DNA of 64,000 nt, from assembly GCF_009914755.1 (NCBI RefSeq), contig NC_060925.1; one strand, given 5' to 3'. The notes below the pieces were generated by a model. That model had not been told where the DNA came from and did no database searches. It saw only the letters and a program-made list of their open reading frames with translations. Below are positions 50,228-54,329 of the stretch, in pieces. The first letter of the stretch is position 1, and the number at the start of each line of letters is the position of its first letter. A program made the position numbers and the translations under genes. Source of the DNA: the human T2T-CHM13v2.0 reference genome, Homo sapiens.

Positions 50228-50794
50228 AAAAAATTATTTGAAGTGAAATATGAGTAATTCCTTAGCATTTATCACAATCTGGATGGAATTTCTCTTAAAG
50301 ATCATGCAATTTCCTTGCTGATTCTATATGTACTAAACAACCATCTGATTGCTTTTGATTTCTTGATACTTGAGAAATTCAAAGACAAGAGTATGCTAAC
50401 AAACAAATGAGTTTTATAGTCACTGAAACAGAATACCCTGTTATAAATTTATAAATTAATCTGCTGGCACAGGTCAGATGCACTTAAAGTCAGATAAGAT
50501 GAGCTAGTCTATTCAAGACCTAATTAACTATCATTCAAAAGCTGCAGATTAGAGGATAAAGCACATACTTTAGGGACACTGAATAAATATTTGCAGAATG
50601 AATGAACAATGTGAGAGTTCCCTGTCTCTGTGTTAGTAAAAAAGTTTTACTCATGCCAATGAAAAAGTCAAAGAAAATGGACCTCATTTCAGGGAAACTT
50701 ATTAAGTTGGTGTGAGGAACACACTAATAATCCCACAAAGGCTAATCTCTGACATCTGATTTCTTAAATACAAATACAAAGTACTCTTTTTCTT

Positions 50795-52833
50795 TTTTTT
50801 TTTTTTAATTGATCATTCTTGGGTGTTTCTCGCAGAGGGAGATTTGGCAGGGTCATAGGACAATAGTGGAGGGAAGGTCAGCAGATAAGTGAACAAAGGT
50901 CTCTGGTTTTCCTAGGCAGAGGACCCTGCGGCCTTCCGCAGTGTTTGTGTCCCTGGGTACTTGAAATTAGGGAGTGGCGATGACTCTTAACAAGCATGCT
51001 GCCTTCAAGCATCTGTTTAACAAAGCACATCTTGCACCGCCCTTAATCCATTTAACCCTGAGTGGACACAGCACATGTTTCAGAGAGCACAGGGTTGGGG
51101 GTAAGGTCACAGATCAACAGGATCCTAAGGCAGAAGAATTTTTCTTAGTACAGAACAAAATGAAAAGTCTCCCATGTCTACCTCTTTCTACACAGACACG
51201 GCAACCATCTGATTTCTCAATCTTTTCCTCACCTTTCCCCGCTTTCTATTCCACAAAACCGCCATTGTCATCATGGCCTGTTCTCAATGAGCTGTTGAGT
51301 ACACCTCCCAGACGGGGTGGTGGCCGGGCAGAGGGGCTCCTCACTTCCCAGTAGGGGCGGCCGGGCAGAGGCGCCCCTCACCTCCCGGACGGGGCGGCTG
51401 GCCGGGCGGGGGGCTGACCCCCCCACCTCCCTCCCGGATGGGGCGGCTGGCCGGGCGGGGGGCTGACCCCCCCACCTCCCTCCCGGACGGGGCGGCTGTC
51501 CGGGCAGAGGGGCTCCTCACTTCCCAGTAGGGGCGGCCGGGCAGAGGCGCCCCTCACCTCCCGGACGGGGCGGCTGGCCGGGCGGGGGGCTGACCCCCCC
51601 ACCTCCCTCCCGGATGGGGCGGCTGGCCGGGCGGGGGGCTGACCCCCCCACCTCCCTCCCGGACGGGGCGGCTGTCCGGGCAGAGGGGCTCCTCACTTCC
51701 CAGTAGGGGCGGCCGGGCAGAGGCGCCCCTCACCTCCCGGACAGGGCGGCTGGCCGGGGGGGGCTGACCCCCCCACCTCCCTCCCGGTCGGGGTGGCTGG
51801 CCGGGCAGAGGGGCTCCTCACTTCCCAGTAGGGGTGGCCGGGCAGAGGCGCCCCTCACCTCCCGGACGGGGCGGCTGGCAGGGCAGGGGGCTGACCCCCC
51901 CACCTCCTTCCCGGACGGGGCGGCTGGCCCGGCAGAGGGGCTCCTCACTTCTCAGACGGGGCGGCTGCCGGGCGGAGGGGCTCCTCACCTCCCGGACGGG
52001 GTGGCTGCCGGGCGGAGACGCTCCTCACTTCCCAGACGGGGTGGCTGCCGGGCGGAGGGGCTCCTCACTTCTCAGACGGTGTGGCTGCCCGGCGGAGGAG
52101 CTTCTCACTTCTCAGGGCAGTTGCCAGGCAGAGGGTCTCCTCACTTCCCAGACGGGGCGGCCGGGCAGAGACGCTCCTCACATCCCAGACGGGGTGGCAG
52201 GGCAGAGGCGCTCCCCACATCTCAGATGATGGGCGGCCGGGCAGAGACGCTCCTCACTTCCTAGATGGGATGGCGGCCGGGCAGAGACGCTCCTCACTTT
52301 CCAGACTGGGCAGCCAGGCAGAGAGGCTCCTCACATCCCAGACGATGGGCGGCCAGGCAGAGACGCTCCTCACTTCCCAGAAGGGGTGGTGGCCGGGCAG
52401 AGGCTGCAATCTCGGCACTTTGGGGGGCCAAGGCAGGCGGCTGGGAGGTGGAGGTTGTAGCGAGCCGAGATCACGCCACTGCACTCCAGCCTGGGCACCA
52501 TTGAGCACTGAGTGAACGCAACTCCGTCTGCCATCCCGGCACCTCGGGAGGCCGAGGCTGGCGGATCACTCGCGGTTAGCAGCTGGAGACCAGCCCGGCC
52601 AACACAGCGAAACCCCGTCTCCACCATAAAAATACGAAAACCAGTCAGGCGTGGCGGCGCGCGCCCGCAATCGCAGGCACTCGGCAGGCTGAGGCAGGAG
52701 AATCAGGCAGGGAGGTTGCAGTGAGCCGAGATGGCAGCAGCACAGTCCAGCTTCGGCTCGGCATCAGAGAGAGACCATGGCAAGAGAGGGAGAGGGAGAC
52801 CGTGGGGAGAGGGAGAGGGAGAGGGAGAGGGAG
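50795..52833 (-). mobile_element. SVA retrotransposon, full length (insertion extends to 53126 via 5' transduction)
   Basis: Poly(T), SINE-R, VNTR, Alu-like region and (AGAGGG)n on +; TSD CAAAGTACTCTTTTTCTT at 50777-50794 and 53127-53144. Confidence 0.96.
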
Positions 52834-53126
52834 CCATTGTTTCATCTTACCCCTGAGAAACAAAGGCCCAGCGAGGTCAGACGCTTGCCCTTGGCCTGGG
52901 CCACACAGTGAGTGAAGGTCAGAGCCTAGGCGGGAAACCACCTCTTTCACGGCAAAGCCTTTGTTCTGGCCTCACTCCTCCACTTTCACTCTTCTCCGCT
53001 CAGATCCTGCCCATCCCCTGGGCTCACAGGAGATGCCCCTTGGAGGCCTCCAGGCCAGCGCCCACCCCTGTGGCTGTGGCATCCTCTCCAATGGCAGGCA
53101 CAGACCTGGACCCTGTTGGCGCCAGC
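52834..53126 (-). other. 5'-transduced sequence carried by the SVA (contains a MIR core fragment)
   Basis: GC-rich non-SVA DNA between the hexamers and the TSD. Confidence 0.85.
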
Positions 53127-53136
53127 CAAAGTACTC

Positions 53137-53424
53137 TTTTTCTTGAAATGAGGTCTTGCTCTGTCGCCCAGGCTGGAGTACAGTGGCGCAATCTCGGCTC
53201 ACTGCAACCTCCACCTCCCAGGTTCAAGTGATTCTCCTGCCTCAGCTTCCTGAGTAGCTGCAATAACAGGCAACCGCCACCATGCCTGGTTAATTTTTGG
53301 ATTTTTAGTAGAGATGGGATTTCATCATGTTGGCCAGGCTGATCTGGAACTCCTGACCTCAAGTGATCCACCTGCCTCGGCCTCCCAAAGTGCTGATTAC
53401 AGGTGTGAGCCACCGCACCCGGCC
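53137..53424 (-). mobile_element. Alu whose tail received the SVA insertion
   Basis: TSD AAATACAAAGTACTC at 50772-50786 and 53428-53442. Confidence 0.92.
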
Positions 53425-54329
53425 ATTAAATACAAAGTACTCTGTCTACAGTGAAACCCGTAGAATGAACAGGAATCTGAGATGCAGCCCATGGAAACCA
53501 TAAGTGGAATGCCCATATGCTCCTTCTCAAAGCAAGAGGACAAAACTGTTATCAGGAAGAAGCCATGCTAAAATTCAATCAATTTTTAAAAATGTATAAA
53601 ACATGAAATTGTACTTTCAAAACATACAGTGACATCATAATGACAATTACTGTAAAGTAACAACCATATGGAACAATCTAGGCAGGCCTGCTAGCTGGGT
53701 ATAGTAATAGGCCCCAAAGATATACTGTGTTTATTTATACTTCTATGAAAGAAAAGAGAAAAGAAACTGAATTAAAAACTTTCAAGTTCTATTTACTGAT
53801 ATACTGGTGCCTTGGAAGGAAAGTTTCTGAGAAAATTAGGGAAATGCTTAAATCTTTGGTTAAAAAATAAGTGAGAAGGCTACTTAATTTTAAATTTTTG
53901 ACTTATACTAAATAGTTATACTAAAATTTTTTAGTATAAGTGAACAGTTAAAAATCTCACCAAATACAAATACTTTGATTTTTGCACTATCCTGGCTCCA
54001 ATATTTAACTGCCTTTATACTCTTAGACAATTTACCTAAACTCTCTGTGCCTCAGTTTCTCCAGTAAAATGGAGATATTCACAATACCTTCTTCACATGG
54101 TTATAGTGAGGATTAAACAAATGAATACCTGTAAAGCATTTAGACTAGTTTCTGGCACATACTCTTAGCTATTATTACTATTAATTCATATGTTTTTTAT
54201 ACTTTTTAGAGACATAATTACAATTATCCACTTATTCAAAACAAACATGTTTAGTAGCCACTATAAAACCGATACTGCACTAGAAGCTGAGAATACAGAG
54301 ATAAATAAAACACTACCCTATACTATCAA

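What the first reader, a model, noticed from the sequence alone, without database searches (positions are those of the whole stretch)
50772..53442. SVA with about 293 bp 5' transduction nested in an Alu tail, shown by interleaved TSDs
Seen: the SVA TSD CAAAGTACTCTTTTTCTT (50777-50794) recurs not at the hexamer end (52833) but at 53127-53144. It encloses 52834-53126, a GC-rich non-SVA segment containing a MIR core. A second, outer TSD AAATACAAAGTACTC (50772-50786 and 53428-53442) belongs to the Alu. Inferred order: Alu first, then the SVA into its tail. Established: SVAs transcribed from upstream promoters carry 5' flank. Retained hexamers argue against the spliced MAST2/SVA_F1 type. Inference: the segment was imported from a source locus, and the A-rich AAGATGAAACAATGG next to the hexamers (minus strand) is probably the source element's TSD.
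Basis: partly seen in the sequence, partly recalled or inferred. Interest (0 to 1): 0.8.

Follow-up and report, generated by a model that had tools for sequence, protein, structure and literature searches.

The report
SVA carrying chr20 sequence, in Alu tail
A full-length SVA retrotransposon in an RNF115 intron brought along 292 bases copied from chromosome 20 when it inserted into the tail of an older Alu, which is a clean but ordinary example of SVA 5' transduction.

Summary
An exact 18-nt duplication (50777-50794 and 53127-53144) encloses a minus-strand full-length SVA plus 293 extra bases. An exact 15-nt duplication (50772-50786 and 53428-53442) encloses that whole unit plus a minus-strand Alu. 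So the Alu came first and the SVA then inserted into its short tail.

The extra piece has one other copy in the genome, at C20:65468037-65468328, with 288 of 292 bases identical and no gaps. There it is ordinary contiguous DNA at the edge of a CpG island. That island is the 5' end of a minus-strand stathmin-family gene (STMN3 by recall).

CHM13 has no SVA at that site or within about 20 kb of it, and no sibling copies. The chr20 breakpoint has an L1-endonuclease-like site 14 nt upstream and looks like an empty insertion site.

Best reading: a 5' transduction from a source SVA that was lost or is not in this assembly. Rival: a template-switch chimera.

A published table lists what appears to be this element as a basal SVA_D not shared with chimpanzee or gorilla.

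The phenomenon is well known, so interest is low.

The parts
50772..50786 (.). Left copy of the Alu target-site duplication (AAATACAAAGTACTC)
   Evidence: Exact pair with 53428-53442; 0.00 expected by chance
50777..50794 (.). SVA target-site duplication, the copy next to the poly-A; made of 10 nt of the Alu TSD plus the Alu tail complement TTTTTCTT
   Evidence: Exact pair with 53127-53144
50795..50806 (-). SVA poly-A tail, 12 nt (poly-T on the + strand)
   Evidence: Sequence read
50807..51303 (-). SINE-R domain of the SVA (boundary with the VNTR approximate)
   Evidence: 96-97% identical over 506 nt to 39 other genomic copies; 94% to the neighbouring SVA at 49717-50208
51304..52404 (-). VNTR, about 1.1 kb, units of 37-49 nt, with a 176-nt higher-order unit repeated 2.9 times at 96%
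   Evidence: TRF; repeat families D1-D3
52405..52765 (-). Alu-like region of the SVA (approximate boundaries)
   Evidence: 72-77% BLAST matches of this part to Alus in the chr20 loci; sequence read
52766..52833 (-). 5' hexamer (CCCTCT-type) region, so the element is full length
   Evidence: TRF period 6 at 52784-52833 and period 23 at 52766-52822; minus-strand read
52834..52834 (-). Junction base (G on the minus strand) that matches neither the chr20 parent (A) nor the hexamer phase; either the first base of the source SVA or an untemplated base
   Evidence: The chr20 alignment covers query 2-293 only; L002 reads ...caatg|a
52835..53126 (-). 292 nt copied from C20:65468037-65468328: the 5'-transduced (or template-switched) segment
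   Evidence: 288/292 identical with no gaps; only 2 copies in the genome
53127..53144 (.). SVA target-site duplication, 5' copy; its last 8 nt (53137-53144) are the in-place Alu tail
53145..53427 (-). Older dimeric Alu (S-type by recall), with 3 extra bases (53425-53427) before its TSD
   Evidence: Two Metazoa_SRP-like monomers on the minus strand: 53143-53290 (E 1.3e-05) and 53309-53423 (E 1.1e-12)
53428..53442 (.). Right copy of the Alu target-site duplication

Best explanation
This is one L1-mediated (target-primed) retrotransposition event. It inserted, on the minus strand, an RNA made of 292 nt of chr20 sequence joined to a full-length SVA_D.

The insertion site was the T-rich complement of the short A-tail of a resident Alu in an RNF115 intron, and it produced an 18-nt TSD.

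The chr20 part is most likely a 5' transduction. A source SVA once sat in + orientation at C20:65468328/9, flanked by a 14-nt TSD AAGATGAAACAATG. It lay about 290 nt inside a transcript that started at the edge of the CpG island of a minus-strand stathmin-family gene (STMN3 by recall), running divergently from that gene. That read-through RNA was retrotransposed to chr1.

The source copy is absent from CHM13, either because it was never fixed and then lost, or because it is rare.

Shown: the nested TSDs, the chr20 origin, the colinear unspliced copy, the empty chr20 site and the CpG-island context. Inferred: that a source SVA existed, which promoter was used, and the timing.
For: (1) The 18-nt TSD encloses the SVA plus the extra piece, with poly-A only at the SVA end.

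(2) The extra piece has exactly one other genomic copy, on chr20. It is 288/292 identical without gaps and is contiguous with unique flanks there.

(3) Homology ends at ...T|AAGATGAAACAATG|. Only 1.9% of the 3092 + strand positions tested in L002, and 3.7% of the 1000 positions in 1300-2299, have a strict T|AARA site 6-20 nt upstream. With looser patterns the figures are 5.5-5.6% and 8.2-10.2%. The last 14 nt rank in the top 1.0% for A content. This is what an empty L1-type target site looks like.

(4) No GT follows the breakpoint at chr20, so splicing is not the join.

(5) The segment begins where the CpG island ends: CpG counts per 250 nt fall from 23-40 to 12 and then 7. The island carries a minus-strand start, MASTIS followed by gt, and Stathmin PF00836 exons lie downstream on the minus strand (E 9.2e-21 and 6.5e-20; 2 of the 127 minus-strand stop-to-stop frames of 45 aa or more from L003 and L004 scanned).

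(6) Passages read in papers. 5' transductions are frequent in SVAs, which 'borrow' nearby promoters (1389 5' events among 7554 insertions; PMC10681720). [quoted passage not shown]
Against: No SVA is at the chr20 site or within about 20 kb either side in CHM13.

No sibling carries the segment (2 of 2 candidates were self and parent). None carries the junction either: 1 exact match, which is self, and the other 18 matches all have 2 mismatches. I estimate roughly 10 such matches by chance; the tool's backward-pattern control gave 0.

No entry containing my recalled hg19, hg38 or T2T coordinate strings for the chr20 site was found in the held supplements of the 543-insertion non-reference SVA study, or in the SVA_D table of PMC6139936. 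Both are weak negatives because the coordinates are recalled.

A + strand transcription start near C20:65468037 was not tested, and the start of the segment could equally be a 5' truncation point.

The endonuclease-motif test was designed after seeing the site.
Confidence: 0.75

Rival explanations
1. Template-switch chimera. L1 reverse transcriptase copied a canonical full-length SVA RNA to its capped 5' end, then jumped onto an unrelated RNA transcribed from the + strand upstream of the stathmin-family gene's CpG island and copied 292 nt of it. No SVA ever sat at chr20.
For: There is no SVA at the parent locus and there are no siblings. A single base at the junction (52834) matches neither partner, as can happen at a switch at a capped end (that interpretation is recalled knowledge). 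[quoted passage not shown]
Against: A random switch point would fall next to an endonuclease-like site in only about 2-10% of cases, and in a 14-mer this A-rich in about 1%. The donor would be a low-abundance promoter-upstream RNA, whereas known chimeras mostly use abundant RNAs (recalled). The extra G is explained equally well as the first base of a source SVA.
Confidence: 0.17
2. Two-step origin. The direct parent was an SVA at a third locus, not present in CHM13, that already carried the chr20 segment. Chr20 would then be the grandparent locus.
For: Offspring can themselves act as source elements and transductions accumulate step by step (PMC12593883, passage read). The 1.4% divergence leaves time for an intermediate copy.
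Against: It needs an additional unseen element. Only two copies of the segment exist in CHM13.
Confidence: 0.05
3. The 292 nt are native chr1 DNA, or arrived by a separate DNA-level duplication, and the SVA merely landed beside them.
For: None beyond adjacency.
Against: The exact 18-nt TSD encloses the SVA and the segment together. With the insert removed, the Alu tail joins its flank seamlessly. At chr20 the segment is contiguous with its flanks and has no TSD.
Confidence: 0.01

Closest known systems
5'-transducing SVA elements (Damert et al. 2009 and Hancks et al. 2009, Genome Res; both recalled and not held here. Population data in PMC10681720 and PMC12593883, passages read)
   Same: Full-length SVA with contiguous, unspliced foreign sequence directly 5' of the hexamers and inside the TSD. 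The sequence maps to a unique locus next to a CpG-island promoter. The length (292 nt) is within the published range of transduction lengths (5' and 3' together: 9 bp to 4 kb; 5' mean 172 bp).
   Different: It is a singleton with no group members, and no SVA is present at the origin in CHM13. That is also described for a share of published cases.
SVA_F1 (MAST2 exon 1 spliced to the Alu-like region) and chimpanzee pt_SVA_D6 (STK40 exon 1), PMC6139936
   Same: An SVA that acquired 5' sequence from the neighbourhood of a CpG-island promoter.
   Different: Those elements lost the hexamers and part of the Alu-like region through splicing, and they founded expanding subfamilies. Here the hexamers are retained, the parent site has no splice donor at the breakpoint, and there are no offspring.
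L1-mediated template-switch chimeras (for example the SVA-CKS1B copy proposed in PMC12593883)
   Same: Two RNA-derived parts inside one TSD with one poly-A.
   Different: The breakpoint here lies at an endonuclease-like, A-rich site typical of a former insertion site.
Insertion of non-LTR retrotransposons into A-tails of resident Alus (established knowledge, recalled)
   Same: The first-strand nick falls in the T-rich complement of the Alu tail (+ strand TTTCTT|GA), which gives the same orientation and nested TSDs.
   Different: Nothing notable.

Membership tests
Canonical full-length SVA | 5' (CCCTCT)n hexamer array | tested here: met
   TRF period 6 at 52784-52833; minus-strand read CTCCCTCTCCCTCT...
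Canonical full-length SVA | Alu-like region, GC-rich VNTR and SINE-R in that order | tested here: met
   Alu-level BLAST matches to 52405-52765; VNTR at 51304-52404; SINE-R 96-97% identical to 39 other genomic copies
Canonical full-length SVA | Poly-A tail and TSD with an L1-endonuclease-type target | tested here: met
   12-nt poly-A and exact 18-nt TSD; nick context TTTCTT|GA on the + strand
SVA 5' transduction | Non-SVA sequence directly 5' of the element and inside its TSD | tested here: met
   52835-53126 lies between the hexamers and the 5' TSD copy
SVA 5' transduction | The sequence maps colinearly to one other unique locus | tested here: met
   C20:65468037-65468328, 288/292 identical, no gaps, the only other copy
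SVA 5' transduction | An SVA lies immediately downstream of that sequence at the origin | tested here: not met
   No SVA at the breakpoint or within about 20 kb in CHM13. Other haplotypes were not testable. Published studies accept such origins as lost or rare sources
SVA 5' transduction | The source element's TSD is recognisable at the 3' end of the transduced piece | tested here: inconclusive
   The T|AAGATGAAACAATG end is an endonuclease-like site found at 1.9-3.7% of positions (strict pattern), but the second TSD copy cannot be seen without the filled allele
SVA 5' transduction | An upstream promoter drives transcription through the source | not testable with these tools
   CpG-island edge and divergent orientation relative to a stathmin-family gene. 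No transcription-start data are available here
SVA_F1 / spliced exon-capture type | Hexamers and the 5' Alu-like part replaced by an exon that ends at a splice donor | tested here: not met
   Hexamers are retained, and the parent sequence continues with AT, not GT, after the breakpoint
SVA_D subfamily, human-specific | Diagnostic SINE-R positions; absence at the ape orthologous site | not tested
   Taken from PMC6139936 Additional file 2: hs_SVA_DR chr1:145668555-145669044 (hg19), with the chimpanzee and gorilla columns blank. Matching that entry to this element rests on a recalled hg19 CD160 coordinate, which leaves an offset of 18 bp

The most novel reading that the evidence does not exclude
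No source SVA ever existed on chr20. Instead, the L1 reverse transcriptase switched from the capped 5' end of an SVA RNA onto a promoter-upstream antisense transcript of the STMN3 CpG island. That would make this a natural SVA-to-uaRNA chimera, and it would imply that some 'source-less' SVA 5' transductions are template-switch products.
Probability: 0.15. Interest if true: 0.3.

Novelty: new member of a known kind. Interest (0 to 1): 0.15.

Why it matters
This is a tidy worked example of nested TSDs that date two insertions and prove co-mobilisation of foreign sequence.

It points to a former or rare SVA_D source at the flank of the promoter of a stathmin-family gene (STMN3 by recall). That could be looked for in pangenomes.

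It does not change what is known: 5' transduction by SVAs, source elements missing from the reference, and insertion into Alu tails are all established. The insert sits in sense orientation in an RNF115 intron, next to a second SVA in inverted orientation. That may matter locally for RNA processing, but nothing here shows an effect.

Tried and rejected
- **Damert 2009 and Hancks 2009:** the papers most likely to list this element are not held. The supplement of PMC10681720 is an unreadable PDF. So I cannot say whether this transduction is already in print.
- **Literature searches that found nothing relevant:**
  - SVA + RNF115 + retrotransposon: 1 irrelevant paper.
  - SVA + STMN3 + insertion: 1 irrelevant paper.
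  - RNF115 and STMN3 in the supplements of PMC6139936, and STMN3, RTEL1 and RNF115 in those of PMC12593883: 0 hits.
  - SVA + '5 transduction' + MAST2: 0 papers, probably because of how the phrase is tokenised.
- **MIR check:** a sensitive local BLAST of the segment against about 100 kb gave 3 weak hits, no better than shuffled controls (6 of 20 shuffles gave 1-3 hits). MIR identity stays unverified.
- **Splicing:** rejected, because no GT follows the chr20 breakpoint and the copy is colinear.
- **MAST2-type:** rejected, because the hexamers are present and the sequence comes from chr20.
- **Native chr1 DNA or a separate duplication:** rejected by the TSD geometry.
- **A nearby chr20 SVA as source:** rejected. 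The only matches within 40 kb are Alus (67.9-90.4% identity to the Alu-like part) and one 74% match to SINE-R bases at L005 6475-6785.
- **Close siblings by SINE-R:** the best relatives are only 96-97% identical (40 of 1996 candidates scored, so a closer copy could have been missed).
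Full report
**Observation**

CAAAGTACTCTTTTTCTT occurs at 50777-50794 and 53127-53144. With up to 2 mismatches, 0.01 matches are expected in the window, and the only other match (13276) has two mismatches. AAATACAAAGTACTC occurs at 50772-50786 and 53428-53442, with 0.00 expected.

**Anatomy on the minus strand, running from 53144 down to 50777**

- 5' TSD copy.
- 292 nt of non-SVA sequence (53126-52835).
- One unmatched G (52834).
- A CCCTCT-type hexamer array (52833-52766; TRF).
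- An Alu-like region (about 52765-52405).
- A 1.1-kb VNTR (52404-51304).
- A SINE-R (about 51303-50807) that is 96-97% identical to 39 other genomic copies (40 of 1996 candidates scored).
- A 12-nt poly-A (50806-50795).
- The 3' TSD copy.

To the right of the insert, 53143-53423 gives two 7SL-like monomers on the minus strand, which is a dimeric Alu. The Alu's short tail, read as TTTTTCTT on the + strand, is part of both copies of the SVA TSD.

**Order of events**

The SVA TSD duplicates the Alu tail plus 10 nt of the Alu's own TSD. The Alu, with its tail, was therefore in place when the SVA inserted. With the SVA insert and one TSD copy removed, the sequence becomes a normal Alu flanked by its 15-nt TSD.

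The first-strand nick for the SVA lies in the T-rich complement of the Alu tail (+ strand TTTCTT|GA). This is a loose match to the L1 endonuclease preference, a consensus I recall rather than tested.

**Origin of the extra 292 nt**

A search of the window's own genome finds exactly two copies, the window itself and C20:65468037-65468328. The two differ at 4 of 292 positions and have no gaps.

At chr20 the sequence is contiguous with unique flanks and has no TSD, no poly-A and no SVA. After ...GGGGTAAGATGAAACAATG the chromosome continues ATGCCCCC..., whereas the chr1 copy continues G followed by the hexamers. The direction of copying was therefore chr20 to chr1, and the copy is unspliced.

No GT follows the chr20 breakpoint, which rules out a splice join of the SVA_F1/MAST2 or pt_SVA_D6/STK40 kind (PMC6139936: abstract, passages and Methods read).

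**Context of the chr20 parent**

- The 1.5 kb upstream of the segment is a CpG island, with 69-82% G+C and 12-40 CpG per 250 nt. The count drops to 7 within the segment.
- On the minus strand the island holds an ATG reading MASTIS followed by a GT.
- Two Stathmin-family (PF00836) exons lie further along the minus strand (E 9.2e-21 and 6.5e-20). These were 2 of the 127 minus-strand stop-to-stop frames of 45 aa or more from L003 and L004 that were scanned.
- By recall this gene is STMN3. No tool named it.
- The transduced segment therefore lies upstream of that gene and was copied in the direction that diverges from it, beginning where the island ends.

**Is chr20 an empty insertion site?**

The breakpoint is preceded by T|AAGATGAAACAATG.

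| Test | All of L002 (3092 positions) | L002 1300-2299 (1000 positions) |
|---|---|---|
| Strict T|AARA site 6-20 nt upstream, + orientation | 1.9% of positions | 3.7% of positions |
| Looser patterns | 5.5-5.6% | 8.2-10.2% |

The 14-mer before the breakpoint is in the top 1.0% for A content.

This is what a former or alternative-allele L1-type target site looks like, and it favours a source SVA that is simply not in CHM13. The test was chosen after I had seen the site, so I treat it as moderate evidence only.

**Results against the simple story**

- No SVA lies within about 20 kb either side of the chr20 site. The only matches there are Alus (67.9-90.4% identity to the Alu-like part) and one 74% match to part of the SINE-R.
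- No other locus carries the segment.
- No other locus carries the segment-hexamer junction: 1 exact match, which is self, and the other 18 matches all have 2 mismatches. I estimate roughly 10 such matches by chance; the tool's backward-pattern control gave 0.
- My recalled coordinates for the chr20 site match no entry in the held supplements of a 543-insertion non-reference SVA catalogue, or in an SVA_D table. These are weak negatives because the coordinates are recalled.

**Comparison with the literature**

- Passages of PMC10681720 report 1389 5' transduction events among 7554 polymorphic SVA insertions, and note that SVAs 'borrow' promoters of nearby genes.
- Passages of PMC12593883 give a mean 5' transduction length of 172 bp. 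Source elements were found for 34 of 67 singleton events. [quoted passage not shown] They also propose template switching for one case.
- Additional file 2 of PMC6139936 lists hs_SVA_DR at hg19 chr1:145668555-145669044, with empty chimpanzee and gorilla columns. Shared elements in that table carry coordinates in those columns.
- Using a recalled hg19 position for the CD160 3' end, this SVA's SINE-R maps to 145668573-145669062, an offset of 18 bp. The neighbouring SVA would map about 1.1 kb away.
- I therefore take this element to be a basal SVA_D scored as human-specific. Two caveats apply: the anchor coordinate is recalled, and LiftOver is unreliable in 1q21.
- The two 2009 Genome Research papers that catalogued SVA 5' transductions are not held. 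I cannot say whether this case is already listed.

**Age (inference)**

Four differences in 292 nt is 1.4%, with a Poisson 95% range of roughly 0.4-3.5%. At a recalled rate of about 1.2e-9 per site per year on two lineages, this centres near 5-6 million years with very wide limits. That is compatible with an old human-specific SVA_D. It also fits the 3-4% distance of the SINE-R to its nearest relatives.

**Verdict**

Three amendments apply:
- The imported piece is 292 nt.
- The putative source TSD is AAGATGAAACAATG, without the final G.
- The predicted source SVA is not present in CHM13.

My estimates are about 75% for a 5' transduction from a lost or unsampled chr20 source, about 17% for a template-switch chimera, about 5% for a two-step origin, and about 1% for native chr1 DNA or a separate duplication. 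The phenomenon is ordinary, so interest is low.

Noticed in passing
window 48677-50236 (+ strand): A second full-length SVA (hexamers, Alu-like region, about 0.6-kb VNTR, SINE-R at 49717-50208 that is 94% identical to the studied one, poly-A) lies tail-to-tail with the studied SVA. The two are separated by about 560 bp, forming an inverted SVA pair inside one RNF115 intron. Its TSD is imperfect (about AAAAAAATATTTG at 48662-48676 versus 50226-50240). It does not appear in the SVA_D table of PMC6139936, so it probably belongs to another subfamily.
   Followed up: partly
window 51304-51815: Inside the VNTR, a 176-nt higher-order unit is repeated 2.9 times at 96% identity (98% between the first two copies). 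This indicates a recent internal VNTR expansion.
   Followed up: no
window 53165-53292: Matches to the mir-3135 and mir-1268 Rfam families, both well below their gathering scores, fall inside the Alu. They are almost certainly similarity to Alu-derived miRNA families rather than genes.
   Followed up: no
window 53425-53427 and 50766-50777: Three extra bases (att) sit between the Alu 5' end and its right TSD copy, and the left flank has a tandem AAATAC AAATAC. The exact extent of the Alu TSD is therefore slightly ambiguous (15-17 nt).
   Followed up: no
L002 1010-1260 (C20:65467546-65467796): A purine-rich GGA/GA low-complexity tract lies inside the CpG island, between the stathmin-family gene's start codon and the transduced segment.
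   Followed up: no
L005 6475-6785 (C20:65474474-65474784): A stretch 74% identical to part of the SINE-R (bases 111-424 of the + strand SVA query). It is presumably an older HERV-K-related fragment and not an SVA.
   Followed up: no
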